A stretch of DNA of 47,472 bases from a virus (IMGVR_UViG_3300020003_000003:1-47472); one strand, 5' to 3'; shown: positions 1 to 29,873, numbered from the stretch's first letter. Notes: generated from the letters alone by a model not told the origin. Program-made: numbers and translations.

Positions 1-140
1 ATCCTCCCACCGGAGGCATCTCGACAACAACCTCCTGGGTGTTCTCCAAGATAATCCAGCCGTTCAAAGACGGCACCCTCAAGCATGCAAATGTCTTTGG
101 AGCGTCCATCTATGATAACCCAGGAATATCTCGTGATGAG
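1..140. repeat. Terminal direct repeat (assembly circularisation overlap), left copy
   Basis: Identical to 47332-47472 except for one missing G (CCGGAGGCATC here vs CCGGAGGGCATC at the right end). Confidence 0.95.
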
Positions 141-893
141 ATCACACGACTTGAGGCTATCTACCCCCTCGGGAGTCTATCCAGACGTATCCGACTTGAA
201 GGTGAGTGGCTTCCTGGCATTGGAGGTGCTCGTGCCTACGGGTCGTTTGAACGTGGTCTCCATGTTAGAGAACAGCCTGAAATTGCAATCAGGCGTCCGC
301 TGTGTTGGACCTGGGACTTTAACGTCGAGCCTATGGTTAGCCTCGTCGGACAGGTGGATGGAAGTGTCTATAGGGTTCTCCGAGAGCTTATCCTCGACGA
401 AGGAAGCATTCCTGAGATGTGCGAAATGTTCAGGCACCACTTTCCGAGCCATGAAGCTGAAATCTGGCTCTACGGGGACGCTTCTGGCGAGCGTCGCACA
501 GGGCAGACTGGGAAATCCGACTATTTCGTGGTTATGCAGGAGATGCGGAACTTTAATCTCCCCCTAAAAATGAAGGTTCCTCCGGATAATCCTCGTATTC
601 CTGATCGTGTAAATGCAGTAAATCGCCTCTGCAAGGATGAAAAGGGCCTAATTCGCCTTCAGATTGACCCTTCTTGCACCGAATTGATAGGCGACCTCGA
701 AGGGGTGCTTCGGGACCAAAAAGGGGGCATTTTTAAGACTAGAAACAAGAAAGACCCCTATTTTCGACGTACCCACACCTCAGATGCCCTTGGATATTGG
801 CTTTCTTTTGAAGAGCCAGTGCGTCCGCCAAGCCAGCATATCCGATCTGACATCAGAATAGGGGCTCCTGGCTATGCCTTTGGACGACGATGA
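39..893 (+). CDS. terL: Terminase large subunit, C-terminal (nuclease) part; continues from 46750 across the circular junction (about 491 aa in total)
   Basis: RNase H-like terminase motifs WDFN, YGDASG and HTSDALGY; in frame with the ATPase half at the right end; followed by the portal gene. Confidence 0.92.
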   Translation: MFSKIIQPFKDGTLKHANVFGASIYDNPGISRDEITRLEAIYPLGSLSRRIRLEGEWLPGIGGARAYGSFERGLHVREQPEIAIRRPLCWTWDFNVEPMVSLVGQVDGSVYRVLRELILDEGSIPEMCEMFRHHFPSHEAEIWLYGDASGERRTGQTGKSDYFVVMQEMRNFNLPLKMKVPPDNPRIPDRVNAVNRLCKDEKGLIRLQIDPSCTELIGDLEGVLRDQKGGIFKTRNKKDPYFRRTHTSDALGYWLSFEEPVRPPSQHIRSDIRIGAPGYAFGRR

Positions 894-15359: not shown

Positions 15360-16285
15360 TGGGCGGCGGTGATAGCGCGGTTCCTCAGCCAAGTGCAGCT
15401 GAGATGGCACTGCAGCAGGCTCAGGCCAGCCTGCTCCAGCAGCAAACCCAGATTATTCAGGAACAAAGGGATCAACAGAAGATCCTCTTACCCTTCCTGG
15501 CCGAACAGGAGGGCTTCGATGTCGAGATGAATGAGAATGGTACTATCAAAAGCATCAAGAAAAAAGACAATCCAGAGGATGCCAAGCGCAAAGAGCTTGA
15601 GGGCATGTATCTGGATCGCAGCCTCAAGGCTATGCGTGGCGAACTAGAGCTTGATCCAGCCCTTGAGGAGAGCCTTAAGACCGGCGAGCAGCAACTCAGA
15701 GAGAAGCTCCAGAGCCAGTTTGGCCCTGGCTATGAAACATCTTCGCCGGCTATCGAGACGTTGGGTCAGTTTATGCGTTCCTCTGAGATCCTAAGGGAAG
15801 GTGCTAGGACAGGACAGCTGACCCTTTCGGAGCAATTAGGCATAACCAGGGAACAGCAAGAGCAGTTTAGCAGGGGGTCTTCTCAGGATGTTCTAAGAGG
15901 CTCCGCAGTAGGCGATCCTATGTCCTTTGCAGGCGCCTTTGGACAGGCTGCTAGAGGATATGGCCAGGCCCAGGTTCCCTACCTGCAACAGAGGCAGATG
16001 CAGGCTCAGGCCAACTCTTCTAGCTCAGATCGTCTCTATCGACTGCTTGGTGCTGGTATCGGAGCGGGAGGTCAGATTGGTGCTTCCTACTTCTCCGACC
16101 CCGAACTGAAGGACGATCTAATACCCATCAGCGCGACGATGGAAGGTATAACCATCTACGAATATACCCGAAAGGATACCGGCGAGAGAATGATAGGTGT
16201 CCTATCAAGTGACGTCGAAGAGAAAATGCCCTGGGCAGTCCTATCCCGTGGTGGATATGACGTTGTAGACTATGAGAAGGTCTAA
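15359..16285 (+). CDS. Internal virion (DNA ejection) protein with C-terminal peptidase S74 / intramolecular-chaperone-like domain
   Basis: MGGG start and Gln-rich helical body; C-terminal FSDPELKDDL...IYEY...IGV...DVE...P.AV...VDY. Confidence 0.7.
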   Translation: MGGGDSAVPQPSAAEMALQQAQASLLQQQTQIIQEQRDQQKILLPFLAEQEGFDVEMNENGTIKSIKKKDNPEDAKRKELEGMYLDRSLKAMRGELELDPALEESLKTGEQQLREKLQSQFGPGYETSSPAIETLGQFMRSSEILREGARTGQLTLSEQLGITREQQEQFSRGSSQDVLRGSAVGDPMSFAGAFGQAARGYGQAQVPYLQQRQMQAQANSSSSDRLYRLLGAGIGAGGQIGASYFSDPELKDDLIPISATMEGITIYEYTRKDTGERMIGVLSSDVEEKMPWAVLSRGGYDVVDYEKV

Positions 16286-18228
16286 TGGACCCATTTCTTG
16301 AAGGTGGCGGTTTCAGTGGTGGCTATCAGCCGCAGGAGCCGCAGGCTCGCCTGCCTCAACCGCCAGAGCAGGTTCCCCTGTCGCCGCAAGCTGCTGATGT
16401 AGCCCAGCAGTATCAGCAGAACCAGGAAGAGTTCAAGCGTCGCCAGGCTGAGATTGAGAGCAGGAAGCAGGACCTTGTTCTAGCTGAGCGGATGTCCAAG
16501 CTGATGGACCCACGAGTGCCTAAGCCGGCACGTCAATTCCTATATGATGAGCTGTCTAGAACTTCTGGAGTTGATCCTAAAGGAGAGACTTCTAGAAGCG
16601 TTGGCAAGATGCTTATGGGCCTCGACCCTGAGGCGCTAGAGGGTCTCGGTCGGAACTTTGCTGCCAAGCTGAAAGATGCCAAGCCTGGCGAGATTAAGCA
16701 ACTGATACAGTCAGTTCTAACAGGACAGATGTCCGGTATGGAACTGTTGAAAGTGGCGCAGGCAGGGCCGGCCGCACCAAGTCCAGCCTCGCCATTAGCT
16801 GGGGCGGCTCCTCCGCCTCCTCCTCCCGCCGCCCCAGCGCCCCCTCCTACACAGACGCCGCCATCAGCGATGCCTCCCGATGTAACCCCTCCCACGGTCA
16901 CCCAGCCGCCCCCCATCACAGCTACAGGCGAAGAGGTAAAGCGTCGCCGTCTCAAGACGGTTGGTGAGACTCCTGCTCCCTATGGCATCGTGGAGCCCGG
17001 TCTCCTAAAATCGCTGGGCCTGGACTATAGCAAGCCGGTCAGACACGATGATCTAGCCAAGATGGGCTTTGCTGTTCCTCAGGATGCCAAGGAACAGCGA
17101 GAGCTGGCTAAGGAGATGGATCAGATCGCCGCTGGGACCGTTGACGTAGCTGTCAATGCAGCCAGGGTCCATCAACTGTTCGCTGGAAAGCCGGAGGTTC
17201 TGGGTGCCGTAGGTGCTACTGCTCGTACTATCGACCAGGCTATGGATCAAATTAAGGGCATTGCACAGGTTGCCGGCGTTGATTTAAGCAAGACCCCAGG
17301 TCCTGGAGAGGCTGGATTGAAATCTCTGGCCGTTAGCGCTGCAAGCAGGGTACAGGCTCTGTATCGGGCCTCTGGAATAGAGCACACTGCTGTAGAGAGT
17401 GCCAAGCTGCAGGGGGCCATTCTGGATATGGCCTATAGTATGGCTGTCGCTAGAGGCATTCCTGGCAACCGACTGACAAATGCAATTATAGCTCAACATC
17501 TCAATACTCTGGGACACAGCCAGTCGGTTGCTCAATTTGAGTCGACACTAGCAGATGCTACCGCTAGAGCCACCGAGCGCTCCGCTCGACAGATGGCCTC
17601 CCGTGTTGGAGGAGCTGAATGGCAGCCTAATTTCAGTTTCGCATCTATGAGTGATCTAGAAACTATGGCCAGCGCTTCTGGAATGCTTCCTAAAGGTATT
17701 AGAGATAACGTCGCGGCGGAGGTTCAGAAGAGACTAGATGTAGCTCAGGGTAAGCCAGCTACCCTTGGAAAACCCGTTACTCGACAAGAACCAACCCTCG
17801 AGACAGAACAGGCTGATGTGGCGAAAGAGGAGGCTCAGCGCCAGAGGCATCTGGACTTCGCTGAGAGCCGAGAGAAAGATCGCCTCGCGATGGAGAAGGA
17901 GCGCGATCAGCGTGCTGCTCGTGGAGAGACCAGAGCTGAGGCCAGAGCCAAGGAACAGACAGAACACACTAGGTTTATGGAAAACATGGCTATTCGCCGT
18001 GAGGCCAGGTTGGAGAACCAGCAGAAGAAGGACAAAATCGGAGAGGCCTTTGTCAAGCTAGGCCAGATGATTGGCCATGGCAGCACCCATCAGATAAGTG
18101 CAGGATCGGGAGGAGGCGGCGGTGGAGATCAGGACGCTGGAGCCTTCAGAATAGCTCCGCCCCCCAGACGTCAGGCACCCCAGCCTGTAGACGCATCCAG
18201 GTATCAGAGAGGAAAGAAGGGTGCCTGA
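16285..18228 (+). CDS. Internal virion / ejection protein
   Basis: 647 aa, helical, Ala/Gln-rich with a Pro-rich linker; lies in a run of large genes after the tail module. Confidence 0.6.
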   Translation: MDPFLEGGGFSGGYQPQEPQARLPQPPEQVPLSPQAADVAQQYQQNQEEFKRRQAEIESRKQDLVLAERMSKLMDPRVPKPARQFLYDELSRTSGVDPKGETSRSVGKMLMGLDPEALEGLGRNFAAKLKDAKPGEIKQLIQSVLTGQMSGMELLKVAQAGPAAPSPASPLAGAAPPPPPPAAPAPPPTQTPPSAMPPDVTPPTVTQPPPITATGEEVKRRRLKTVGETPAPYGIVEPGLLKSLGLDYSKPVRHDDLAKMGFAVPQDAKEQRELAKEMDQIAAGTVDVAVNAARVHQLFAGKPEVLGAVGATARTIDQAMDQIKGIAQVAGVDLSKTPGPGEAGLKSLAVSAASRVQALYRASGIEHTAVESAKLQGAILDMAYSMAVARGIPGNRLTNAIIAQHLNTLGHSQSVAQFESTLADATARATERSARQMASRVGGAEWQPNFSFASMSDLETMASASGMLPKGIRDNVAAEVQKRLDVAQGKPATLGKPVTRQEPTLETEQADVAKEEAQRQRHLDFAESREKDRLAMEKERDQRAARGETRAEARAKEQTEHTRFMENMAIRREARLENQQKKDKIGEAFVKLGQMIGHGSTHQISAGSGGGGGGDQDAGAFRIAPPPRRQAPQPVDASRYQRGKKGA

Positions 18229-20596
18229 TCCAGATGCTAGGCCCTGGTGGGACGTTCCGAAGCCGACGTTAACAGATGACGTTGACTATACCTATGGTAA
18301 GTCTCAAGCGGAGATGGAAACTGAACGGGTAGCCAAGCATGCTGTCGATGCAGCTATGGCTTCTATTGGAGGGGGTGATACCCGCAAGTGGGCAGAGCCA
18401 ACCCCGGAGAAGCGTGGCTTCTTGGCTCCTGTGATGGTTGAGAAAGGGTTCCACGATCCAACCCCCGCAGTGCCTGAAATCCTACACGGTCCCTACAAAG
18501 CATTTAGTGAGATGTGGACCCTTCTGGCCACTGGTCGACAGCCCAGTGATCCAGAAGTAGTCAAGAAGTCTTTTGAGGTTGCATCAGCTCTAGCTGGTGG
18601 TGGGATGGTTCTAGAAGGAGGAGCCGTTGTAAAGGCGCCTATCAAGGCTGCTGGCAGGGCGGTTGAGGATAGGGTGTCCTCCCTAAGAGAGGCTGGCCTA
18701 AGTGAACAGAGACCGCCACCCGATCCAGCCAAAGCGCCCAAGGCGAAGAATGTGCCTTCTAAGGGGGTTGAAAGAGAGATAGATGAGTCTGGCTACTACA
18801 GTCAGCTTCGAGAAACCGTTGCCGGCCTCCAGAAGTCTGAGGCCCATCCCTCTGAATACATGGCCCTCCTGGAACCGGGCCGATCAGGTGTCAAAGAAGG
18901 TGAGATAAGGGCAACTGGCCTAGATAAATTCCTGCTTGGCGACGAAGTGGGAGAGATGAGAAGATCGATTATAGATGTTAAGGAGGGGCTATCGACGCTT
19001 ATAAAGACGGAGAAGGATCTGCAGATAAAGCTATCTAAGACGACCAACTCCCATGATCTGAAAGTTCTAGAGAGAGAACTGGCAGAAGCCCAGTCCCAGG
19101 TAACAGAGGGAAAGGAGCTGGTACAGAAGGGTGTTGCTCACTATAATGACAAGCTTAGAGGCATAAGGGAACAGCCTGGGAGCAGGACGCGGGAAGAGTT
19201 GTCTAAGCATGTAGAAGAGAATAAGACGATTATAGAAGAAGTCCGGCACCAGGTGGGTGATAGACCGGATCCAGGAGAGGCTCCGATAGGAGCTGGAGAC
19301 CTACCCCATTCCTCCTACACCACAGACCCCTCCAATCCTACTATGCGGGAGGTCCAGCTGACCGTCCGCAATCCTGAGGCGGAGGCGAAGCTCTTTGCTG
19401 TGGAGAAGAAGATTGCAGAGGCCAACACCAAGATCGGGAAACTAGTAAATGAAGAGCGTGCTGATCCTCGCAAGCGTATTCTTGGTGAGGATTACTTCAA
19501 CGAACCTCTTAGCCCAGAGGTAAAGAAGATATTCGACGAGAAGGAAGCTCTATCGAAAGAAAGGGCCGATATCCAGGATCGCTTCTACCACAGAGGCGGT
19601 CACTTCACCTCGAACACAGCAGCATGGTATATGGCGTCTATACAGAAGGGCAAGGACGGTAGGAGTTCCTTAGTAGTTCATCAGGTGCAATCGGACTGGG
19701 GACAGTCTGTCAAGGCCAGAGGATCACAGTCACCTGCTGAAATTAGGAAATTAGAGGAGGCAGTTAAGACTGCTAAGAACAAGGTAGAAGAAATTGAGAA
19801 TAAAGACCTGTGGAAACTTAGCGAGGGGGGAGGAAAGAACGCGGATCATCAGAGAGCCTTAGATATAGCCGACAAGATAAAGCCTATAGCCGCGCTGACA
19901 GATAAGGAAACATATGGTCTACAGGTAGCTATAATCCGATCTAATCAAACCGGCCACTGGCAGGAAGGTCTAGAACAGATACTGAAGGCTGGCCGAGATG
20001 ATCTAATAGATCACGGCACAGCTATCAGACTTATAAAACAGATAGATGCCAGTCCAGCCGCTCAGGACATCCTGAGGACTGTTGAGGAGGACTTTAAGAA
20101 GACCTATGCAGAGAGGATAGCCAAGGAGCGCCTAAAGGAACATCTAGACCTGCCTCCCCACCATCCTATGGTTGGCAGCACTCCTCAGTGGGTCGACCTC
20201 GCTGTCAAGCGGATAATCAAGGATGCCATCGACAGCGGAGCTGACACTATAGCTATTCCCCACGGCCAGACGGTCCAATCCTACACTGGTGGCACACCAG
20301 AGGGTCAGAAGAAGTTCTACGAGGTCATCCTGCCAAAGCGGTTGGAGAAGGCTCTAAGGGAGATGGACCCCTCTATAGAAGGGCAGGCTGTCAAAGACTT
20401 GCTGTCACATAAAGGTAAACCGCTTAAATATAGACTCAGAGACCCCAGTGGTGAAGAGGGAGGAATACCCTATCCAGCCCGCTTCACCGAGTTTCCTATA
20501 ACAGATGCTGTTCGAGAGGGCCTGAAGAAGCAGAAGGGTCAAAAGCTGTATACGAAGGGGCCAGTAGCTCCACCTCAATCCGAGGAGAATGAGTGA
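18221..20596 (+). CDS. Large internal virion protein with a domain typical of phage large polyvalent proteins
   Basis: Motifs GYYSQL, GVKEGEI, REVQL, GGHF, QVQSDWGQ, WVDLAVKR...A...GAD.IA and KFYE.ILP. Confidence 0.6.
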   Translation: MPDPDARPWWDVPKPTLTDDVDYTYGKSQAEMETERVAKHAVDAAMASIGGGDTRKWAEPTPEKRGFLAPVMVEKGFHDPTPAVPEILHGPYKAFSEMWTLLATGRQPSDPEVVKKSFEVASALAGGGMVLEGGAVVKAPIKAAGRAVEDRVSSLREAGLSEQRPPPDPAKAPKAKNVPSKGVEREIDESGYYSQLRETVAGLQKSEAHPSEYMALLEPGRSGVKEGEIRATGLDKFLLGDEVGEMRRSIIDVKEGLSTLIKTEKDLQIKLSKTTNSHDLKVLERELAEAQSQVTEGKELVQKGVAHYNDKLRGIREQPGSRTREELSKHVEENKTIIEEVRHQVGDRPDPGEAPIGAGDLPHSSYTTDPSNPTMREVQLTVRNPEAEAKLFAVEKKIAEANTKIGKLVNEERADPRKRILGEDYFNEPLSPEVKKIFDEKEALSKERADIQDRFYHRGGHFTSNTAAWYMASIQKGKDGRSSLVVHQVQSDWGQSVKARGSQSPAEIRKLEEAVKTAKNKVEEIENKDLWKLSEGGGKNADHQRALDIADKIKPIAALTDKETYGLQVAIIRSNQTGHWQEGLEQILKAGRDDLIDHGTAIRLIKQIDASPAAQDILRTVEEDFKKTYAERIAKERLKEHLDLPPHHPMVGSTPQWVDLAVKRIIKDAIDSGADTIAIPHGQTVQSYTGGTPEGQKKFYEVILPKRLEKALREMDPSIEGQAVKDLLSHKGKPLKYRLRDPSGEEGGIPYPARFTEFPITDAVREGLKKQKGQKLYTKGPVAPPQSEENE

Positions 20597-22737: not shown

Positions 22738-23919
22738 ATGCCACTGATGCGTGTTCCTGAGGGAACCATTCCCAGACATCAAAGCAGAGATCTGCTGGGA
22801 GACCTCTATAAGAGGCAGCAGCTGCAGCAGGATTATGCTAAGTCCATAGGGCGACTGAGAAAGGAGCGACAGCTGGAGACACTGCCAGACGAAGGAGCTG
22901 GTAAGTTCTCCCCAAGAGGGCTCCAGCCGGAGGGACCTAAGAACGAAGAGATGGAGAACATCTATAGGAAGGGAGCTAACCCTATCAGCAGAACAGCTGC
23001 TGGCGGCGAGGGTCCTGACTTTACAGGACCTCGACCTCAGGGATATTGGGGCAGAGACTCCCAGTGGCAGCAGCTATCTCCCTATCAGAAGGCCGCTGCA
23101 ATGTCCCTCCTCGAAGCGGACAGTAAGCAGGGTCGGATTAACTTCATGGATGCCCGCAATGCTATGGGAGCTATGATCAATAGGGCTGACAAGGAAGGCC
23201 AGGATCTGGGTGACCATGTCAGTCGGAAGATCTACCAACCGACCATAGAGCCGGAACAGTACAGCAGGCTGGCAGCCATCGTTCAGATGCCGCAATTCAA
23301 GGCCCTGACCGACCTGGCAGAACAGCGTGCCACAGGCAAGGTGGGGGATTGGGTAGATGGAGCTACTCACTTTCTGGCCAAACCTCAGACGATGCTCGCC
23401 CTGGAGGCGAACGAACCGGAGAAGTACAAGAGCTGGAGGAGGTGGACCGGCTATGACGACGCTACGGGGAAGTACAAGAACGAAGTTATGGCTGATAGCA
23501 GTCATGTCTTTCTGGCCCCAGAAGGCAAACACAGCGCCGGGAGCTACGCACCCACCTATGGTGCCGGGGCCGAAGTGTCTGGTCCATCGGAAGCCCTTGC
23601 TCCTCCGCCATATCCGGCAACCCAAGATGCATCTGGTCAGCCACAACCCCAACTCCCGAAGCTGGCAGAGGTGCTGGGTGGAGATGCCGGAAATCTACTG
23701 GCGCCGAAAAGGTCGGGAGGAGGGGGAGGGGGTAACCCTCTGGCCGACCTCCAGTCAGCTCCATTCAAAATGACTGGGTTTGAAGGCCTTCCTGAGCAGG
23801 ATGATCGGGCGTTTGCTCTTCTTCCAGCACAACAACGCCGCCCGCCCCCTCCGGCAGCGGGGCAGCCTCAGCTACCAGTGCCTCGTAGACCTCCCGGATT
23901 TGGCCAGGTCCCTGGATAG
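22738..23919 (+). CDS. Virion-associated cell-wall hydrolase (SleB / Hydrolase_2-like lytic transglycosylase domain)
   Basis: LLEAD...AMGAMINRA...DGATHF...HVF matches the Hydrolase_2 pattern (catalytic Glu, NR, GATHF, HVF). Confidence 0.68.
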   Translation: MPLMRVPEGTIPRHQSRDLLGDLYKRQQLQQDYAKSIGRLRKERQLETLPDEGAGKFSPRGLQPEGPKNEEMENIYRKGANPISRTAAGGEGPDFTGPRPQGYWGRDSQWQQLSPYQKAAAMSLLEADSKQGRINFMDARNAMGAMINRADKEGQDLGDHVSRKIYQPTIEPEQYSRLAAIVQMPQFKALTDLAEQRATGKVGDWVDGATHFLAKPQTMLALEANEPEKYKSWRRWTGYDDATGKYKNEVMADSSHVFLAPEGKHSAGSYAPTYGAGAEVSGPSEALAPPPYPATQDASGQPQPQLPKLAEVLGGDAGNLLAPKRSGGGGGGNPLADLQSAPFKMTGFEGLPEQDDRAFALLPAQQRRPPPPAAGQPQLPVPRRPPGFGQVPG

Positions 23920-24733
23920 ACCGCATATCTCCCCAGTTCAGGCCAACCTTCATGTCTACCCCGAGGGTGAACTTGTAGCCGTTATACTCTAAGGTAGGGC
24001 TCATATACTGGATAATCTTCTTGCAGACATGCTCCACGACATTCCAATCGTGAGTAGGCATCTGGATCATTAGGGAGTCGTGAACCTGAGCTCCCAGATG
24101 CCACTGGGCCTGCTCCATATCAGGGTCCTCAAAGGCCAGGCACATTGCTTCCAAGCAGATGTCTACCACTGTTGATTGGGGCACGAAGGAATAGGCCTGG
24201 TCGAACAGATCATTCCCCCACTCCCCCATTAGCCGCACCTTACGGCCAAAGCAGTTGGTCAGGGTGCGGTTCTTTCTGAGCTGCTCGACAGTTCCCTTCC
24301 ACCAGTCCTTGAGACCGGGATATGCTACGTCGCTGTAGTAGGCGACGATAGGCTGGGCCTCGGATTCCTGGATTTCCCATTCCAGTGCGGCTCGTCGGAA
24401 CTTCATGTTGTAGTTGAGGCCGTGGTTGGATTTCTTGCCCATCTGTCGCAGGGACATAGAGCGAGGTAGGAAGATGGCGTCCTTCTCCTGAAGGTCTACC
24501 AGTTCTGGCAGGTATTCCACCCGCAGGGCCATTATGTCCACTGCGTTAGTGTTGTTGCCAAGGAGCTTATGGTCGGCCAAGACCAGCTCCTCAGGAACGC
24601 TGCTGATAAAGGATGCAGTGGCGACGTGGGGACTCTTTCCACTCTCAACTACGCCTATCATGTTCTTGTCGCCCGATAGATAGGCAACAACAACCCACTC
24701 TGCACCGGCAAGATCGAACTCAATCAGGATCAT
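23765..24733 (-). CDS. polA: DNA polymerase family A, C-terminal subunit (palm/fingers)
   Basis: Motif A EFDLAGAE, motif B RQMGKKSNHGLNY, motif C QVHDSL; also FGRKVR and PQST. Confidence 0.92.
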   Translation of the reverse strand: MILIEFDLAGAEWVVVAYLSGDKNMIGVVESGKSPHVATASFISSVPEELVLADHKLLGNNTNAVDIMALRVEYLPELVDLQEKDAIFLPRSMSLRQMGKKSNHGLNYNMKFRRAALEWEIQESEAQPIVAYYSDVAYPGLKDWWKGTVEQLRKNRTLTNCFGRKVRLMGEWGNDLFDQAYSFVPQSTVVDICLEAMCLAFEDPDMEQAQWHLGAQVHDSLMIQMPTHDWNVVEHVCKKIIQYMSPTLEYNGYKFTLGVDMKVGLNWGDMRSIQGPGQIREVYEALVAEAAPLPEGAGGVVVLEEEQTPDHPAQEGLQTQSF

Positions 24734-24918
24734 GCTATTAACTTCTCCACAGGCACTTTAAGCTTTTTTGCCAGCTTAAGTGCTATACCTTTTGACACAG
24801 AACGCTTACCGTTTACAATCTCAGATGTTCTGCCTCTTGCACCAATAGTTTTCACTAAATCTTTTTGGCGAAGACCCAATCGCTTCATAGCGTTCTGTAT
24901 CTCTTCTGATGCGCTCAT
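24730..24918 (-). CDS. XRE-family HTH protein, HigA-antitoxin-like
   Basis: MKRLGLRQKDL..IG.RGRTSEIVNGKR.VS...LAKKLKVP..KLI; about 41% GC by hand count; ATGA overlaps on both sides. Confidence 0.78.
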   Translation of the reverse strand: MSASEEIQNAMKRLGLRQKDLVKTIGARGRTSEIVNGKRSVSKGIALKLAKKLKVPVEKLIA

Positions 24919-25781
24919 CTGCTAGAGTTCCAGTCCTCAAGGGCCATCAGGAGCTGCTGACAAGTCTCCTGATCAAAGAGACCAGTAGCCATAACGTCGT
25001 GCTTGGTCTGCCAGTCCTTCAGGGCGGCCATTGTTCTGCTGCCGTGAGAGCCGTCCATCTTTAGTGGGGGGTTAGCTCCGAACATATTCAAGGTGGCCTG
25101 GCCCCATGCAGTAATATTGCCCTTGGTTGGCTCGTAGGGGCCTGCCGGAAGGGGTGTACCTGAGGCATCTCCGCCGCTCCACTGCTCTGTCAGCTCCTCG
25201 ATTGTGCCATAGAAGCGATTTATGTCGATGTTGTTTCCCAGGCCAGGAACGCTATGTGGCTGAGGTCCCTTTCCGTCGCCGGTGAACTGGTGAAGCCACA
25301 GGTCCTTCCAGCTGGCCTGGTGCGTTGGGCTGCTGTCCCACTCAGCAACCCACAGACGACAGCTTCCCAGGTAGTCGTTAACCTGATGGCCCAGCTGCTC
25401 CTTGATCAGATGGCCACTATACAAGACACCCTTCCGGCCGATCTTAGTCTCCAGCAGACGGAGGAACTTCTCAGCATCTGCTGCACTGCATCCTCGCTCT
25501 TCGTGGTCGAGGGCCATTAGGGTGCCAGCAGATGGCTTAGCGTTCTTGACGAAGTGGTTGACCTGGGCCTCGATATTGCCAGGGCGGAAGTAGTGGTAAG
25601 CGCCCCAGAATATCCCGCTGCCCTCGCACTTCTGGCGCATCGGAGCGTAGTGGGGGTCTACATAGGATACCCCCTCGGTAGCCTTGTGGATGACTCCCCT
25701 GACGCCGAAGTTGAAGGCGGCCTTGAAGTCAGTCGGGCTTTGATAGTGACTCAGATCGACTACGTAGATTGGGTTTGCCAT
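24915..25781 (-). CDS. Endolysin: GH25 muramidase plus C-terminal peptidoglycan-binding domain
   Basis: VDLSHYQ, HKATEG, GAYHYF, ALDHE, LWVAEW, LHQFT, DIN; C-terminal DG.HG.RT.AALK.WQ......TG. Confidence 0.92.
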   Translation of the reverse strand: MANPIYVVDLSHYQSPTDFKAAFNFGVRGVIHKATEGVSYVDPHYAPMRQKCEGSGIFWGAYHYFRPGNIEAQVNHFVKNAKPSAGTLMALDHEERGCSAADAEKFLRLLETKIGRKGVLYSGHLIKEQLGHQVNDYLGSCRLWVAEWDSSPTHQASWKDLWLHQFTGDGKGPQPHSVPGLGNNIDINRFYGTIEELTEQWSGGDASGTPLPAGPYEPTKGNITAWGQATLNMFGANPPLKMDGSHGSRTMAALKDWQTKHDVMATGLFDQETCQQLLMALEDWNSSR

Positions 25782-25782
25782 G

Positions 25783-25998
25783 TTACACCTCTATCATGAA
25801 AGCTAGGGCCATTGCGGCTACCTGCATTGCCTCTTTCTTAGCATGGGCCTTATCATCCTTTTTGACAGCATCCCATAGCTCTTCCAACTCCTCGAGGATG
25901 ACGGAATATCCCTCATGGGCACTTTGCATAGGCCTATGCTTTTTCCTGGCTCGATAGTACTCCTGCAGAATAGCGTCATTTACTTGTTCCGGTGACAT
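25783..25998 (-). CDS. MazG-like / all-alpha NTP pyrophosphohydrolase
   Basis: HEGYSVILEELEELWD...KEAMQVAAMA (EExxE...ExxQ pattern). Confidence 0.72.
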   Translation of the reverse strand: MSPEQVNDAILQEYYRARKKHRPMQSAHEGYSVILEELEELWDAVKKDDKAHAKKEAMQVAAMALAFMIEV

Positions 25999-26014
25999 GC
26001 CTTGTCCTTTCTTG

Positions 26015-27640
26015 TCAACCTGCCACTATAAACCCTTTGAACTCGGGATGCAAGTTCTGGAGGTTCATCCCTGTTCCCATAAGGGTCTGTGAAGACGAGA
26101 GACGACCCGTCCAAGTGCCTCGAGGGTTCCAGCTGCAACGTAGACGACTATCTTGGTCGAGTTCAACGTCGATGTATGTACCTTTAAGCTTCTTGAGTGC
26201 CCTGATCTCCTGGACCAGTTTAGCCTCCTTTGCACCAACGCCAGCTTTGCGTACGATCCTAGACATAGCCTTGTCATCTGTCGTCACTCCCCCCATCTGG
26301 TTTTTGTACGGAGGAAGCCCCAGGGTGTCGTAGAAGTACTGCTGGCACTGCTTGGGGCTGGTCGGATTGAAGTCCCACTGGGATATAGCTGTTAGCTCCG
26401 CCTCCTTGGTTGCTATCGACACCTCTAGGCGTGCCTTCGTACTGGCCAGGCCTTCTCGATCCACTGCGAGACCATGAGCCGTCATATATGTAAGAGGGCC
26501 GGCCAGCCTGGCGGTTCTGTTGTATGTGGGCCAGTAGCCGCCATCGGTCATCTCCTTCGATAGTACGTCCCACGCTTCTAATGCCACACAGGCGTCGCGG
26601 CCGCAGTAACGCTGAAAGGTTTCCCAGTCTATGTTTGGGTTCTTCCATATCTTTCCATCATCCTTCCAGTAGGGCTCTCGAGTGTGGATGCTGGCTATGA
26701 AGTCCAGGCCCTTGTTGAAGTCCGGGTACATGATATGCTGGGCAATCATAGGGTCCCCTAGAAAGCCCTTGGTGTGGATATTACACTGCATGAACAGAAA
26801 GGGAGCATCGAAGCCAACTATATTCTGATTGATCTTCATTACCGAAGGGTCGCTCATCAGAGAGGCGTATTCCCTCCAGACGCAGACCTCATCTTCCTCT
26901 GTCCAGTAATCTGCTCCAGAAGGTGACAAGAGTGGTATAGTCATCGCTTCTGCTGGGTCGCAGCTCAGGCTGAAGCACGACACCTGATGGTTCATCACCT
27001 CTATGTCCGTGCATACCCTCCCTGCTTCGCGGCATTTCTGTATGTAGTGGTAAAAGTCTGCGTAGGTTGGCCTGATTAGGAGGTTCCTCTTGGGAAGGAT
27101 CAGCTCCCGATCCTCCAGCTCTCCCTTCACCTTCTCCATGTCGGCTATTATCAGGTAACGCCAGAGGTACGTTCCGTGAAGGGTAGCCGCTGGGTGGATA
27201 GTCGGGATGAACTTGCGATCTATGATATCTGACCATAGAGGGGAGCCGCGCCACTTCATCATTGGGCGCTCGTCCCCCGTTAGAAGACCCATTGCCTGCT
27301 GACCCATAGGTAAGATGACCGAGGCAGACGATGACCTTATTCGGTCCAACGTAGGGGCAGCTGCATCGAGGCCAGCCGCAGTATACCCTTTTCCTCTGTA
27401 CCATAGACACTCTCCGTTGAGATAGCAGTTGCCACGCTTGTCCTTCTCAACCGGCTCCTGCCAGACGTTTAGGATATAGCATTGCTTGCGGATCAGGCCA
27501 GCGGAATGGAGGCAGTCGTTAAACACATCGCCGCTGGGTCCTACGAGGGGCCGACCTAGACGCATCTCAACGCGAGCGGGAGCCTCGGCCAGGACGAGGA
27601 GCCTGCTGGAAGGGTCGCCTTCTTCATAGGGAGAGGTCAT
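26015..27640 (-). CDS. polA: DNA polymerase family A, N-terminal subunit: UDG-like domain + 3'-5' exonuclease + thumb
   Basis: UDG family 4-like AEAPA...PLVGPSG and HPAA; Exo I TDIE, Exo II N...FD, Exo III YCGRD; FNPTSPKQ, TGRLSS and NLQN. Confidence 0.9.
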   Translation of the reverse strand: MTSPYEEGDPSSRLLVLAEAPARVEMRLGRPLVGPSGDVFNDCLHSAGLIRKQCYILNVWQEPVEKDKRGNCYLNGECLWYRGKGYTAAGLDAAAPTLDRIRSSSASVILPMGQQAMGLLTGDERPMMKWRGSPLWSDIIDRKFIPTIHPAATLHGTYLWRYLIIADMEKVKGELEDRELILPKRNLLIRPTYADFYHYIQKCREAGRVCTDIEVMNHQVSCFSLSCDPAEAMTIPLLSPSGADYWTEEDEVCVWREYASLMSDPSVMKINQNIVGFDAPFLFMQCNIHTKGFLGDPMIAQHIMYPDFNKGLDFIASIHTREPYWKDDGKIWKNPNIDWETFQRYCGRDACVALEAWDVLSKEMTDGGYWPTYNRTARLAGPLTYMTAHGLAVDREGLASTKARLEVSIATKEAELTAISQWDFNPTSPKQCQQYFYDTLGLPPYKNQMGGVTTDDKAMSRIVRKAGVGAKEAKLVQEIRALKKLKGTYIDVELDQDSRLRCSWNPRGTWTGRLSSSQTLMGTGMNLQNLHPEFKGFIVAG

Positions 27641-28116
27641 TCTAGATCCTCTATTATTCTTAGGATATCATCATCTCCAAGTTTACCTAGCAGCTTAGTT
27701 TTTCTGTGTAGATGTTTCCTGCTAAGCGCAGCCTCCTCTGAATAGTACAGCTTATAGTGCTCGCTCCATTCTTCCTTAGTTCTTGGAGGTTTATAATCAT
27801 CAGGTCTTCCTCGTCTCCTGGCCCTAGCTCTCTCAAGATAATCACTAACCATAGCATGATGTGCAGTATTCTGCAGGTAATCTATAGCACGCCTGATTGT
27901 GTCTATATCCTCGCCTAACATACCTATAGCCAGATTACACCTATGTTCCAATATTCCTCTATGACAACCAGTGCTTTTACTGTGATCGGATACTGGTCTC
28001 TCGGGAGGCTTATTAGATATAGGACATACTCCTCCTTGCAAGTTTTCTAACACATAATTAACGTCATCAGGAGATATTCTAAACCTAGCCCAGCGATATA
28101 CTCTATCTTCGGTCAT
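27637..28116 (-). CDS. Endonuclease VII-like (His-Me finger) protein, possibly a free-standing homing endonuclease
   Basis: QGGVCPI...DH...G..RGIL..RCN.AIG.LGED...AI.YL; AT-rich; ATGA-coupled start at 28116. Confidence 0.75.
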   Translation of the reverse strand: MTEDRVYRWARFRISPDDVNYVLENLQGGVCPISNKPPERPVSDHSKSTGCHRGILEHRCNLAIGMLGEDIDTIRRAIDYLQNTAHHAMVSDYLERARARRRGRPDDYKPPRTKEEWSEHYKLYYSEEAALSRKHLHRKTKLLGKLGDDDILRIIEDLE

Positions 28117-28322
28117 TTCTTCTTTCCTCCTCTCTGCCGCACACAACTCATAATCTCCACATACAGCTCATTCTGAGCCGTCCTAGCCAGCTGTCTTAGC
28201 TGGAGGGATGTCTCCTGACAGGTCCGCATATCCCTAAACTGTATCTGCACAGACTTCTGCCAGATCATTACAGGAACACCGAACTTGACGACGATGAAGA
28301 GGGTAACAGGATCAGGGATCAT
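28113..28322 (-). CDS. Hypothetical protein
   Basis: ATGA-coupled start MIPDPVTLF at 28322. Confidence 0.5.
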   Translation of the reverse strand: MIPDPVTLFIVVKFGVPVMIWQKSVQIQFRDMRTCQETSLQLRQLARTAQNELYVEIMSCVRQRGGKKK

Positions 28323-28600
28323 TCGGCTATCCTCAGACTGTGGTACATAGCTCCCATGCCACATCTCTCACAGACAGTCTCACCTCCCCCTCCATGGGCA
28401 AAGGCACGCCAGCCTTTGAAGTTGTGCTCGCAAGGACCAGTTGGACAGGCACAATAGCAGGCATCAAAGTCGAAACTATGCCAGACCAGTTCAGGCTTCT
28501 CAATATCGAGCTTCTTGGCTAACTCATCAAGTTGCGCCCTTACAGATGCATTACGTAGGGCCCTTAGCTCCTCAAAGTCAGGCTTTGTCGTGCTCGACAT
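28319..28600 (-). CDS. Cys/His-rich putative zinc-binding protein
   Basis: CYCACPTGPCEH...CERCG. Confidence 0.6.
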   Translation of the reverse strand: MSSTTKPDFEELRALRNASVRAQLDELAKKLDIEKPELVWHSFDFDACYCACPTGPCEHNFKGWRAFAHGGGGETVCERCGMGAMYHSLRIAE

Positions 28601-29873
28601 CCTCTTGTATCCTTCTTAAGAAGCTATCCTTGTGCTGCTGAGAGAGGTCCCAGCCTATTCCTGTATGCTTCTTCCTATAGGCGGCCCGCAGGGTCACCCC
28701 CGATCCTAGAAAAGGGATCAAGATGTGACTCCCCGGATCGAGGCACAGGTCCAGTATCTCCTCCATCAAGGCTATGGGTTTCTCAGTGGCATGATCCTTC
28801 TTGCCCAACGGTGGGAAGTCGAAGACGTTACCTCTGCCCCGACGGGGCAACTTCGGCTTGCCCTTCCTAGCAAGGAAGAACGGTTCGTAGCAGGAGCCCA
28901 GCGTGGTATAGGGACTGGCTGTCTGCCCACTATCCCCCTTCGTCCAGACCGCTGGAATGTCAGGAACGCCGAAGCCCACCTCCCTTAGGATACGTAGGAC
29001 ATCGCAATGCCAACTCATTCCGTACCAGAAGACAGCGAACTTATTGTCCTTCAGGCGATCATAGACCAGCGCAGCCGTATCGAAGAACAGACTGGGGTAG
29101 CTGTCCGGGGTCCACTCCTTATATGTAGCCATTGGCCTAGTATTGGTATTCCTGCCCTTGCGCTTGTCCAGATCAACACCGTAGGGAGGGTCTACCTCAG
29201 CGAAGTCGAAGATATCCCTCTTCATAAGGGACATCTCCTTTAGGGCATCTCCTATCAGGTAGTGCTCCTCAGCATCGTTGATGGCTGTCTTGATGTGGTC
29301 AGGTACTTTCGCCCTGGCCGCTTTGATAACAACCTCCTCTTCAAGGCGCTCAACGTCCTTAAAGGCATGATCCTCATGCTCGAACTTGTCTAGTTCCAGC
29401 TCGGGAGACTCCTCCATAACACGAGCCAGGTGTAGGCTTCGGTTCACAGCTGGTTGAGACCTACCAACCAGGGTTGCCTGCTGATGCTGAGACCAACCCT
29501 TCTTTGTTACAGGGTTATACTCCCCAAACTCGGCTATCTTTAGGTTGTAGAGCTTCAACTCCAGCCTGTCACGCTCATGCCATAGGAGATCCTTCCGAGC
29601 AATGTTCTCGACAAGCTCGATCTCAAAGCGAGTGGTATCAGTCTTGATATCGTCACGAATTATGCCTTTGATAGTATCTGCGCCTATTAGGCGGTGTGCT
29701 AGATAACGGCGCTCACCAGCTATCAACTGGAAGTTGCCATCTACCGTAATAGGCTGTATCAGGCCGTGCTCTTTAATAAGAGCCGCTAGGCTCTCTATAT
29801 CTCCCTTGTCCTCTCTTGCCCGATCCTTGACCTTAATCTTAGCGAGTGGTATCTCCTGAACTTGCATCCCCAT
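28578..29873 (-). CDS. ParB-like N-terminal domain + HTH fused to a beta-class N6-A/N4-C DNA methyltransferase
   Basis: GLIQPI and AGERR (ParB), ENIARKDL, HTH SQ..A.LVG.SQ..V; MTase DPPY, HATEKP and PFLGSG. Confidence 0.85.
   Translation of the reverse strand: MGMQVQEIPLAKIKVKDRAREDKGDIESLAALIKEHGLIQPITVDGNFQLIAGERRYLAHRLIGADTIKGIIRDDIKTDTTRFEIELVENIARKDLLWHERDRLELKLYNLKIAEFGEYNPVTKKGWSQHQQATLVGRSQPAVNRSLHLARVMEESPELELDKFEHEDHAFKDVERLEEEVVIKAARAKVPDHIKTAINDAEEHYLIGDALKEMSLMKRDIFDFAEVDPPYGVDLDKRKGRNTNTRPMATYKEWTPDSYPSLFFDTAALVYDRLKDNKFAVFWYGMSWHCDVLRILREVGFGVPDIPAVWTKGDSGQTASPYTTLGSCYEPFFLARKGKPKLPRRGRGNVFDFPPLGKKDHATEKPIALMEEILDLCLDPGSHILIPFLGSGVTLRAAYRKKHTGIGWDLSQQHKDSFLRRIQEDVEHDKA

What the first reader, a model, noticed from the sequence alone, without database searches (positions are those of the whole stretch)
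23765..27640. Family A DNA polymerase cleanly split into two genes with three unrelated genes in between
Seen: the N-half (UDG-exo-thumb) ends ...TGRLSS...NLQNLHPEFKGFIVAG-stop and the C-half begins MILIEFDLAGAE (motif A). In contiguous PolA these segments are adjacent (NLQN...F.A..G..L...D), so almost nothing is lost and all catalytic motifs are intact. The 1284-nt gap keeps both halves in the same frame and is fully occupied by MazG-like, GH25 lysin and HigA-like genes with overlaps or gaps of 16 nt or less. That leaves no room for a group I/II ribozyme core, and there are no intein motifs. Inference: a heterodimeric PolA whose palm is assembled in trans, with the catalytic subunit translationally coupled behind a lysin and a regulator. 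This could be a regulatory or anti-defence arrangement and is the best candidate for an undescribed system here.
Basis: partly seen in the sequence, partly recalled or inferred. Interest (0 to 1): 0.85.

Follow-up and report, generated by a model that had tools for sequence, protein, structure and literature searches.

The report
Two-gene phage DNA polymerase holding lysin
An uncultured soil phage encodes its family A DNA polymerase as two separate genes cut just before the catalytic motif A, with its cell-wall lysin and two small genes in between; the two products likely assemble into one enzyme, and the same cut is already visible in published phage genomes, so this is a widespread, little-studied arrangement and not a new system.

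Summary
On the minus strand a 541-aa UDG-exonuclease-thumb gene (26015-27640) and a 322-aa palm/fingers gene (23765-24733) are separated by three tightly packed genes: a weakly MazG-like 71-aa gene, a GH25 endolysin and an XRE-type HTH gene. No intron, intein or misassembly was found.

The same cut occurs in 31 of 46 evaluable related viral contigs. Their gaps span 54-3427 nt, and the cargo turns over: three or more lysin families, ThyX, MazG-like genes and small ORFs, but no homing endonuclease. More than 1100 stand-alone C-half clusters exist in metagenomes.

Both halves are under purifying selection (dN/dS 0.09-0.23). A complex model scores 0.79 against 0.00 for controls, though that pass may rest on solved single-chain polymerases.

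Best reading: a two-subunit polymerase whose palm sheet is completed in trans, with the junction acting as an ordinary intergenic cargo slot. I found no evidence for a regulatory or anti-defence role.

New here:
- Fused forms nest inside the split clade, so the state is evolutionarily labile.
- Some relatives are cut instead inside the exonuclease domain.
- Some relatives carry inteins.

The parts
26015..27640 (-). PolA N-half gene (541 aa): family-4 UDG-like domain, 3'-5' exonuclease, thumb and the first palm strand. It ends ...NLQNLHPEFKGFIVAG, with the stop at 26015-26017.
   Evidence: ORF. Pfam PF03167 and PF00476 positions 3-126. phrog_17. Profile matches to Klenow and to family-4 UDG structures.
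27176..27622 (-). UDG-like domain of the N-half (residues 7-155).
   Evidence: PF03167 E 8e-13. The A2 profile hits solved family-4 UDGs at E 6e-24 to 1e-16.
26549..27046 (-). 3'-5' exonuclease region (residues 199-364). Invariant residues: D212/E214 (Exo I), N273/F277/D278 (Exo II), Y345/D349 (Exo III).
   Evidence: Invariant columns of A2. Alignment to Klenow across the exo motifs. PF01612 is below its cut-off. The motif names are recalled, not from a call.
26018..26041 (-). Last strand of the N-half (FKGFIVAG, residues 534-541), predicted to join the palm sheet of the C-half.
   Evidence: In the complex model residues 535-541 touch C-half residues 264-269 with expected error of 0.7-1.0 A in the pairs listed. 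This is a model only.
25783..25998 (-). 71-aa cargo gene, weakly MazG/PRA-PH-like (all-alpha NTP pyrophosphohydrolase type). An AAGGA Shine-Dalgarno lies 6 nt before its ATG, and the gene starts 16 nt after the N-half stop.
   Evidence: phrog_25385 E 5e-11. Sub-threshold MazG/PRA-PH match, E 0.015. Homologues sit in the same gap in L014, L017, L025/26/51, L027 and L034. Sequence.
24915..25781 (-). Endolysin cargo gene (288 aa): GH25 muramidase plus a PG_binding_1 domain.
   Evidence: PF01183 E 1.3e-29 and PF01471 E 2.3e-6. phrog_291 endolysin. Orthologues sit in the same gap in L014, L016, L017 and L018.
24730..24918 (-). 62-aa XRE-type HTH cargo gene. It overlaps the lysin stop and the C-half start by 4 nt each.
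   Evidence: PF01381 E 4e-6. phrog_1373. No homologue in any of the 47 related loci.
23765..24733 (-). PolA C-half gene (322 aa): palm and fingers with motifs A, B and C. It is the last gene of the leftward replication arm.
   Evidence: ORF. PF00476 positions 205-381. The A3 profile aligns to Klentaq from motif A onward.
24698..24715 (-). Motif A (D7...E12, FDLAGAEW).
   Evidence: D7, A11, E12 and W13 are invariant in 23 sequences. The stretch aligns to Taq LLVALDYSQIELR.
24410..24448 (-). Motif B (R96 QMGK100 KSNH104 GLNY108). His stands where Taq has F667 (the Klenow F762 position).
   Evidence: Invariant columns.
24074..24082 (-). Motif C (H218 D219 S220). Ser replaces the Glu of the usual HDE.
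   Evidence: qvhDsil aligned to QVHDELV.

Best explanation
The phage's family A DNA polymerase gene is split into two separately translated genes, whose products likely associate without covalent joining into one working enzyme; the inherited junction behaves as an ordinary intergenic slot in which accessory genes, here the endolysin, come and go.

Shown directly:
- The cut lies in the turn between the last strand before motif A and the motif A strand. No residues are lost.
- Each half has its own stop or start, and the C-half start overlaps the preceding stop (ATGA).
- The five genes are packed with no terminator-like site on their strand.

Inferred:
- The five genes are co-transcribed.
- The C-half is made by coupled or re-initiated translation.
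- The N-half's terminal strand completes the palm sheet of the C-half in trans.
- The cargo has no role in polymerase function.
For: 1. Real and clean split, with both halves matching PF00476 above the cut-off.
2. Independent contigs bridge both junctions, and no deleted or joined form was seen.
3. No RNA family matched. The ends are flush with contiguous homologues.
4. The same cut occurs in 31 of 46 evaluable related IMG/VR loci plus the window. N-half identity runs from 36 to 88% and the gap from 54 to 3427 nt.
5. 1113 protein clusters of 177-564 aa match the C-half at E<=1e-10, and the best 120 are 282-379 aa. Only 85 longer forms were found.
6. Purifying selection acts on both halves. Window vs L014: N-half dN/dS 0.09 and C-half 0.19, at dS of about 0.9-1.0.
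7. D7, E12, K100, Y108 and D219 are invariant in 23 C-halves, and R96 is kept in at least 90% of them.
8. Complex model: median score 0.79, best of 3 controls 0.00. That mark was reached by 116 of 157 solved complexes and 2 of 215 mismatched pairs. The runs agree in at least 76% of contacts and the partner's pLDDT is at least 84.
9. In 25 of 28 distinct split loci the C-half start overlaps, or lies within 15 nt of, the preceding stop.
10. No terminator-like site lies on the minus strand within 23400-28700, and promoter-like sites are at chance level: 4 found against 3.4 expected.
11. Cargo families track sub-clades and are replaced by unrelated genes. Every hit of the 16 cargo queries lay inside the gap, and none lay elsewhere in the +/-8 kb held.
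Against: - There is no biochemical or expression evidence. No listed sequencing run is on record as RNA, so splicing or another kind of joining at RNA level is excluded only by sequence arguments.
- The complex score may reflect the model's memory of solved single-chain family A polymerases rather than binding of these two chains.
- Motif C has Ser for the usual Glu, and motif B has His at the Klenow F762 position. Activity is therefore assumed, not shown.
- dS is saturated for all but the closest pair.
- Lysis genes recur in the gap: 5 rows with GH25, 5 with M15_4-type lysins and 4 with a third lysin-like family, out of 32 split rows. That could mean the position is not neutral.
Confidence: 0.8

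Rival explanations
1. The halves are joined after transcription or translation, by a group I/II intron carrying ORFs, RNA trans-splicing, a split intein or translational bypass. The real enzyme would then be one chain.
For: Phage DNA polymerase genes are known intron and intein targets. The MEP401 authors raise the possibility for the same cut (PMC10580990, passages read). Relatives here do carry inteins: L060 in motif B and P0130 at GTG|TN.
Against: - Rfam gave 0 matches at E<=1 over 5.6 kb.
- The 1281 nt between the halves are filled by three conserved, selected genes.
- The N-half ends, and the C-half begins, within 0-3 residues of the contiguous alignment. That leaves no room for intein fragments.
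- Gaps from 42 nt to 3.4 kb with unrelated content share no common RNA core.
- Each C-half has its own start codon.
Confidence: 0.04
2. The arrangement is functional. Placing the lysin and a regulator between the halves ties production of the catalytic subunit to lysis or to regulation, or it serves counter-defence.
For: - Lysis-type genes of at least three unrelated families recur in this exact slot: GH25 in 5 rows; M15_4-type in L020, L047, L048, L052 and L053; a third family in L023 and L025/26/51; and small membrane proteins in L018 and L019.
- All detected copies lie in the gap.
- Stop/start overlaps would couple translation.
Against: - Cargo is absent in L031 (42-nt spacer).
- In 7 distinct loci (9 rows with near-duplicates) the gap holds a 69-83-aa protein of one family of unknown function: alone in L022, L032, L035/36, L037/38 and L039, with one more small ORF in L021 and L028.
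- The window's HTH gene has no homologue in any relative.
- The ParB-MTase/polymerase junction varies as well.
- Tight overlaps are the rule in phage operons.
- No defence or anti-defence family was identified; PADLOC was not scanned.
Confidence: 0.08
3. The gene is disrupted and decaying, or the halves now work separately (for example the N-half only as UDG/exonuclease), and replication relies on another polymerase.
For: Motif C Glu is replaced by Ser, and His occupies the Klenow F762 position. No activity data exist.
Against: - Both halves are conserved with low dN/dS across a deep clade.
- The unusual residues are also invariant in relatives that are contiguous at this site (row L011).
- No other DNA polymerase turned up in the PHROG scans of 59 window ORFs (which do not cover every ORF). 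One weak 'DNA polymerase/primase' family matched the primase gene.
Confidence: 0.05
4. Assembly artefact: a chimeric contig, or cargo inserted by misassembly.
For: The window is a metagenome-assembled virus record.
Against: - Contigs from several runs bridge both junctions without differences or joints.
- The closest relative, L014 from another record, has the same order: N-half, MazG-like gene, GH25, C-half.
- 31 related loci share the cut.
Confidence: 0.01

Closest known systems
MEP401/MEP402-type OM43 phages (Zobellviridae): PolA encoded by gp13 and gp15 with a small gp14 between them (PMC10580990; passages read)
   Same: The position of the cut is identical. gp13 ends ...TGRLSSSSPNLQNFDGEIKTLFLSRYGE-stop and gp15 begins MILNADAKALEWV. 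BLASTP aligns these ends to the window's ends. One gene lies between the halves. The function of the arrangement is unknown there too, and the authors considered an intron.
   Different: The polymerase lineage is very distant (20-22% identity) and has no UDG domain (gp13 is 387 aa). There is a single 77-aa intervening ORF, with no similarity to any cargo here (best E 0.6), and no lysin.
LUZ24-like Pseudomonas phages: 'DNA polymerase part I' and 'part II' (PMC3890496; table passages read)
   Same: A family A polymerase in two genes with many small ORFs between them: UFV-P2 ORF32 at 16151-16666 and ORF43 at 18765-20405.
   Different: The cut lies at the exonuclease/polymerase boundary (171-aa exonuclease plus 546-aa polymerase), not inside the polymerase domain. 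I did not compare the sequences here.
S-SBP1-like T7-type cyanophages with an exo/pol split (Czernecki et al. 2023, PMC10201439; passages read), and the UDG-PolA group described there
   Same: Gene fission of PolA, with an AlphaFold2 complex that superposes on an uninterrupted relative. [quoted passage not shown]
   Different: That split lies between domains and the two genes are adjacent. The paper calls the exo/pol split the first seen in PolAs. In the passages I read it does not describe a cut before motif A or cargo.
Aeromonas phage Aeh1 NrdA, split by the homing endonuclease gene mobE (PMC3045599; listing and start of the abstract only)
   Same: A phage enzyme gene in pieces whose products assemble into a working enzyme.
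   Different: That split holds a homing endonuclease gene. None was found in 3 window cargo genes or in 54 cargo ORFs of relatives.
'Fractured genes' with split inteins (PMC2677866; listing and start of the abstract only)
   Same: A conserved gene broken into two ORFs with another gene between them.
   Different: Those halves carry split-intein fragments and are ligated. Here the ends carry no extra residues.

Membership tests
Family A DNA polymerase (PF00476) | Significant match to the family profile | tested here: met
   N-half 57.5 bits and C-half 82.9 bits against a cut-off of 34.3, covering profile positions 3-126 and 205-381. Profile hits to Taq, Klenow and Bst structures.
Family A DNA polymerase (PF00476) | Motif A Asp and Glu; motif B Arg, Lys and Tyr; motif C His-Asp | tested here: met
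   D7, E12, K100, Y108 and D219 are invariant in 23 sequences. R96 and H218 are kept in at least 90%. All align to the Taq motifs.
Family A DNA polymerase (PF00476) | Phe, Tyr or Leu at the Klenow 762 position, and Glu after the motif C Asp | tested here: not met
   H104 aligns with Taq F667, and S220 with the Glu of QVHDE. The surveys I read list only Phe, Tyr and Leu (PMC6302109; PMC10201439). This is a divergent feature, not a reason to exclude the protein from the family.
Family A DNA polymerase (PF00476) | Proofreading 3'-5' exonuclease motifs Exo I-III | tested here: met
   D212, E214, N273, F277, D278, Y345 and D349 are invariant in 24 sequences and align to the Klenow exonuclease. PF01612 itself is below its cut-off. 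The motif names are recalled.
UDG-PolA (family-4 UDG fused to PolA) | [quoted passage not shown] | tested here: met
   PF03167 at 49.1 bits against a cut-off of 24.3. The profile hits TM0511 and Thermus family-4 UDGs. I did not examine the catalytic competence of the UDG domain.
MEP401-type split PolA | Cut between the NLQN...F strand and motif A | tested here: met
MEP401-type split PolA | Same polymerase lineage and a homologous intervening ORF | tested here: not met
   20-22% identity, no UDG domain. gp14 has no match among the cargo proteins.
Group I / group II intron in a phage polymerase gene | Ribozyme core recognisable by covariance model | tested here: not met
   0 Rfam matches at E<=1 over 23000-28600 on both strands. 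The gap is filled by three genes.
Intein or split intein | Intein blocks at the junction (N-terminal Cys/Ser block; C-terminal Asn followed by Cys, Ser or Thr) | tested here: not met
   The N-half stops 0-3 residues, and the C-half starts 0-3 residues, from the contiguous alignment. For contrast, L060 has an in-frame insert of about 290 aa, GKK|CMPGD...VTGN|SNHG.
Genes-in-pieces made by a free-standing homing endonuclease | Homing endonuclease gene (HNH, GIY-YIG, LAGLIDADG) in the gap | tested here: not met
   None in the window's cargo and none in 54 cargo ORFs of relatives at Pfam E<=0.01. An EndoVII/HNH-type gene lies just upstream of the N-half, not in the gap.
HigA-type antitoxin | HTH antitoxin paired with a HigB-like toxin gene | tested here: inconclusive
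   Only a generic HTH_3 match. The neighbours are the lysin and the polymerase, so no toxin partner is seen. I did not scan PADLOC.

The most novel reading that the evidence does not exclude
The turn just before motif A is a reversible breakpoint of phage family A polymerases. In this clade the gene has repeatedly switched between one-chain and two-chain forms, and the open junction has become the preferred home of the lysis cassette and nucleotide-metabolism genes. Production of the catalytic subunit would then be translationally chained to lysin production, giving a built-in link between replication capacity and lysis. A second breakpoint inside the exonuclease domain, and inteins at two conserved motifs, would mark the same gene as a long-term battlefield of mobile elements whose endonucleases have since been lost.
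Probability: 0.12. Interest if true: 0.7.

Novelty: new variant of a known kind. Interest (0 to 1): 0.45.

Why it matters
Family A polymerases are textbook single-chain enzymes and major biotechnology tools. Here a natural version is cut inside the palm, one strand before the catalytic aspartate, and is conserved in over a thousand metagenomic protein clusters. That points to a permissive split point usable for split-polymerase engineering.

It also means that virome surveys which demand a full-length PolA domain will miss or mis-score this abundant soil and freshwater phage group. One example is the 762-position typing of PMC6302109, which requires E. coli residues I547-Q926.

The lineage also carries an invariant His at the 762 position, which governs nucleotide-analogue discrimination in known enzymes. 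The comparative data further show that a split enzyme gene can serve as a stable cargo slot, and that the split state can change over evolutionary time.

Tried and rejected
- **Intron:** Rfam scan with permissive filters, nothing found.
- **Intein or split intein:** rejected from the flush ends.
- **Homing endonuclease in the cargo:** none in 54 cargo ORFs of relatives at Pfam E<=0.01, and none in the window's three cargo genes.
- **RNA evidence:** no RNA holder was listed among the 10 runs that hold the stretch, so expression and splicing could not be examined.
- **Same frame of the two halves as a signal:** rejected, because relatives differ.
- **MazG identity of the 71-aa gene:** only sub-threshold matches, and no convincing solved relative (best E 0.04).
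- **Single origin of the split:** this looked right with 42 rows (28 split rows formed one clade, SH-aLRT 93). It was overturned once 13 fused proteins were added.
- **DNA context of the nested fused form P0124:** not found in viral contigs or metagenome contigs, which gave only one spurious weak match. The fused forms are therefore known only as protein records.
- **Promoters or terminators inside the gap:** counts at or below the shuffle expectation.
- **Similarity of MEP401 gp14 to any cargo protein here:** none.
- **Not done:** direct repeats flanking the cargo were not searched, PADLOC was not scanned, and no single-chain structure prediction or fold search was run.

Full report
**The window**

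The window is a complete 47,472-bp IMG/VR virus record. It has two convergent arms. The plus-strand arm, 39-23919, is structural: portal, major head and virion proteins. The minus-strand arm runs from about 47.4 kb down to 23765 and holds replication genes: RNR large subunit, primase, exonuclease, a Sak4-like annealing protein, a ParB-N/methyltransferase fusion, an EndoVII-type nuclease and the polymerase. Sequence identical or nearly identical to the stretch is held by 10 soil-metagenome runs from 5 studies.

**Observation**

The minus strand carries, in this order:
- a 71-aa gene (25783-25998);
- a GH25 plus PG_binding_1 endolysin (24915-25781);
- a 62-aa HTH_3 gene (24730-24918);
- a 322-aa gene (23765-24733) with PF00476 positions 205-381.

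The N-half ends ...NLQNLHPEFKGFIVAG, and the C-half starts MILIEFDLAGAEW. Relatives that are contiguous at this site read ...FKKFLVADEGKVLIEFDKRQAEW across the same point, so no more than about three linker residues are missing.

Profile alignment to Klentaq puts the first residues of the C-half on the motif A strand (LLVALDYSQIELR). It aligns motif B as KKsNHglNY over AKTINFGVLY, and motif C as qvhDs over QVHDE.

Intergenic spacings are 16 nt, 1 nt, a 4-nt overlap and a 4-nt overlap.

Contigs of three runs bridge the first junction and contigs of two runs bridge the second. They show no differences, no joints and no loose ends. One of these runs may be the source of the record.

**What it is not**

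- Rfam finds nothing at E<=1 in 23000-28600.
- The ends leave no room for intein fragments.
- Neither the window's three cargo genes nor 54 cargo ORFs of relatives match a homing endonuclease family.
- The shared reading frame of the halves is coincidence.

**Relatives**

A scan of IMG/VR with an alignment of C-halves returned 47 loci. One (L015) lacks the N-half because its contig ends. Of the other 46:
- 31 are cut at exactly the window's site;
- 15 are contiguous there.

Several are near-duplicates: L025/L026/L051, L035/L036, L037/L038 and L056/L058.

The distance from the N-half stop to the C-half ranges from 54 to 3427 nt. L031 has only a 42-nt spacer with an AAGGA Shine-Dalgarno. L052 and L053 hold seven or more genes.

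Cargo:
- GH25 lysins in 5 rows, including the window.
- Peptidase_M15_4-type lysins: L020, L047 and its homologue L048, and L052/L053 with a PG_binding domain.
- A third lysin-like family: L023 and L025/26/51.
- ThyX: L023, L052 and L053.
- The MazG-like small protein, in 7 clustered rows plus L014 by tblastn.
- A 69-83-aa family of unknown function in 9 rows.
- Small membrane proteins: L018 and L019.
- Many singletons, among them the window's HTH gene.

Every tblastn hit of 16 cargo queries fell inside the gap, and none fell elsewhere in the +/-8 kb held.

The next junction upstream, between the ParB-methyltransferase gene and the polymerase, also varies: 12-1013 nt in the loci, and 937 nt in the window, where it holds the EndoVII-type gene. 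The split site therefore behaves like another intergenic cargo slot. It is, however, a slot in which lysis genes recur.

In the large protein collection, 1113 clusters of 177-564 aa match the C-half at E<=1e-10, and the best 120 are 282-379 aa. Only 85 longer proteins do so, and the closest of them is 51% identical.

**Function of the halves**

- dN/dS is 0.09 (N-half) and 0.19 (C-half) against the closest relative, at dS of about 0.9-1.0. It is 0.11-0.23 for more distant pairs, where dS is near saturation.
- Catalytic residues are invariant.
- A complex model built with my own alignments A2 and A3 gave a median score of 0.79, with a best control of 0.00. That mark was reached by 116 of 157 solved complexes and 2 of 215 mismatched pairs. 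The runs agree in at least 76% of contacts, and the partner's pLDDT is at least 84.
- In the model, N-half residues 535-541 lie on C-half residues 264-269 and 1-3. The last strand of the N-half therefore completes the palm sheet.
- Many single-chain family A polymerases have been solved. The pass may show likeness to them rather than binding.
- In 25 of 28 distinct split loci the C-half start overlaps, or closely follows, the preceding stop.
- No terminator-like site lies on the coding strand.

Co-transcription and coupled translation are inferences.

**Evolution of the split**

A first tree of 42 concatenated polymerases placed all 28 split rows in one clade (SH-aLRT 93). I then added 13 fused proteins and removed one long-branch row (L003).
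- The fused P0124 became sister to the 12-row sub-clade that holds the window (supports 100, 96 and 95).
- The fused P0140 became sister to L047/L048 (support 98).
- The split state then needed three changes on the tree.
- An AU test rejected a single split clade (p 1.2e-20). The group was defined after the tree had been seen.

The fewest changes are one fission and two re-fusions. A fission-only history needs six or more events, counted by me on the tree.

The junctions do not settle the direction. P0124 reads FLVADDGYMLIEFD. Its DDGY linker is typical of fused forms, but it has a Met where one split sub-clade starts its C-half. The basal fused P0142 also has GYM. I could not fetch the DNA of these fused forms.

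**Other breaks in the same gene family**

- Eight loci (L033, L042, L043, L044, L046, L049, L054, L060), and also the GenBank phage Caulobacter phage Kuura, are cut elsewhere. The first gene ends ...YWKD.VKF..IK.E., and the second begins about 5-15 residues before the Exo III Tyr (...YNALDSA...). That cut is inside the exonuclease domain, with 0 to about 1.4 kb of other cargo. MW202554 is also a two-gene polymerase cut near there, but its first gene runs on past that motif.
- L060 also has an in-frame insert with intein ends inside motif B. Pfam did not flag it.
- P0130 has such an insert at GTG|TN. Four more proteins show the same ...TGN|TN.QN end. That point is 17 residues upstream of the window's cut.

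**Literature**

- The same cut is described, without explanation, for OM43 phages MEP401/402 (PMC10580990, passages read). I confirmed it on the record OP830906. That polymerase is only 20-22% identical and lacks the UDG domain.
- LUZ24-like phages have 'DNA polymerase part I/II' separated by about ten small ORFs (PMC3890496, table passages).
- Czernecki et al. 2023 describe UDG-PolAs and an exo/pol split that they call the first in PolAs (PMC10201439, passages).
- A marine cyanophage lineage has a 'split DNA polymerase' (10.1101/325100, passages).
- The Aeh1 NrdA and 'fractured genes' papers were seen only as search listings.
- Searches turned up no paper describing a lysin between polymerase halves, or fused forms nested among split ones. 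This is a limited search of an open-access library, and I opened no supplements.
My checks were made independently before I saw it.

**Verdict**

The 'regulatory or anti-defence system' reading is unsupported. The arrangement is a variant of a known but unstudied kind of split phage polymerase.

Noticed in passing
window 27637-28146 (-): A 169-aa Endonuclease VII / HNH-type gene (PF02945, E 1e-10) overlaps the N-half start by 4 nt. tblastn found no homologue in any of the 47 related loci. The sporadic presence next to a conserved gene is what a free-standing homing-endonuclease-like gene would show.
   Followed up: partly
window 23765-23919: The 3' end of the C-half gene overlaps the 3' end of the convergent plus-strand ORF 22738-23919 by 155 nt. 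The C-half's last 50 or so residues are not conserved in relatives, so one of the two ends may be shorter than the ORF suggests.
   Followed up: no
window 24410-24448 and 24074-24082 (-): An invariant His stands at the position of Taq F667 / Klenow F762, which is Phe, Tyr or Leu in the surveys I read. An almost invariant Ser replaces the Glu of motif C (HDE). Both hold in the split relatives and in those contiguous at this site.
   Followed up: partly
L033, L042, L043, L044, L046, L049, L054, L060; GenBank OQ067476 (Kuura) and MW202554: Some relatives are contiguous at the window's site but are cut inside the exonuclease domain, just before the Exo III motif. The gap there runs from 0 to about 1.4 kb of other cargo. 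L042 holds 79-aa and 381-aa ORFs, which I did not scan against families.
   Followed up: partly
L060:7209-8078; proteins P0130, P0132, P0134, P0141, P0145: In-frame inserts with intein-like ends occur in this polymerase family. One lies in motif B (GKK|CMPGD...VTGN|SNHG, about 290 aa). Another lies at GTG|TN.QN, 17 residues before the window's cut. Pfam did not flag the L060 insert.
   Followed up: partly
proteins P0124, P0140, P0142: Fused full-length UDG-PolAs nest inside, or at the base of, the split clade (AU test p 1e-20 against a single split clade). Re-fusion and repeated fission could not be told apart, and the DNA of these forms could not be fetched.
   Followed up: partly
L016:5690-5834: In one relative the N-half ORF runs on for about 50 extra residues past ...FIVAR and overlaps the start of the GH25 gene.
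   Followed up: no
window 28578-29873 (-): A ParB N-terminal domain fused to an N6/N4 DNA methyltransferase (431 aa) lies upstream of the polymerase. The same order is kept in most related loci and in Desulfofustis phage LS06-2018-MD01.
   Followed up: no
window 39-893 (+) and the record ends: The first ORF gives only a weak, partial terminase-large-subunit match (E 6e-6, 284 aa). The record may be linearised within or near the terminase gene.
   Followed up: no
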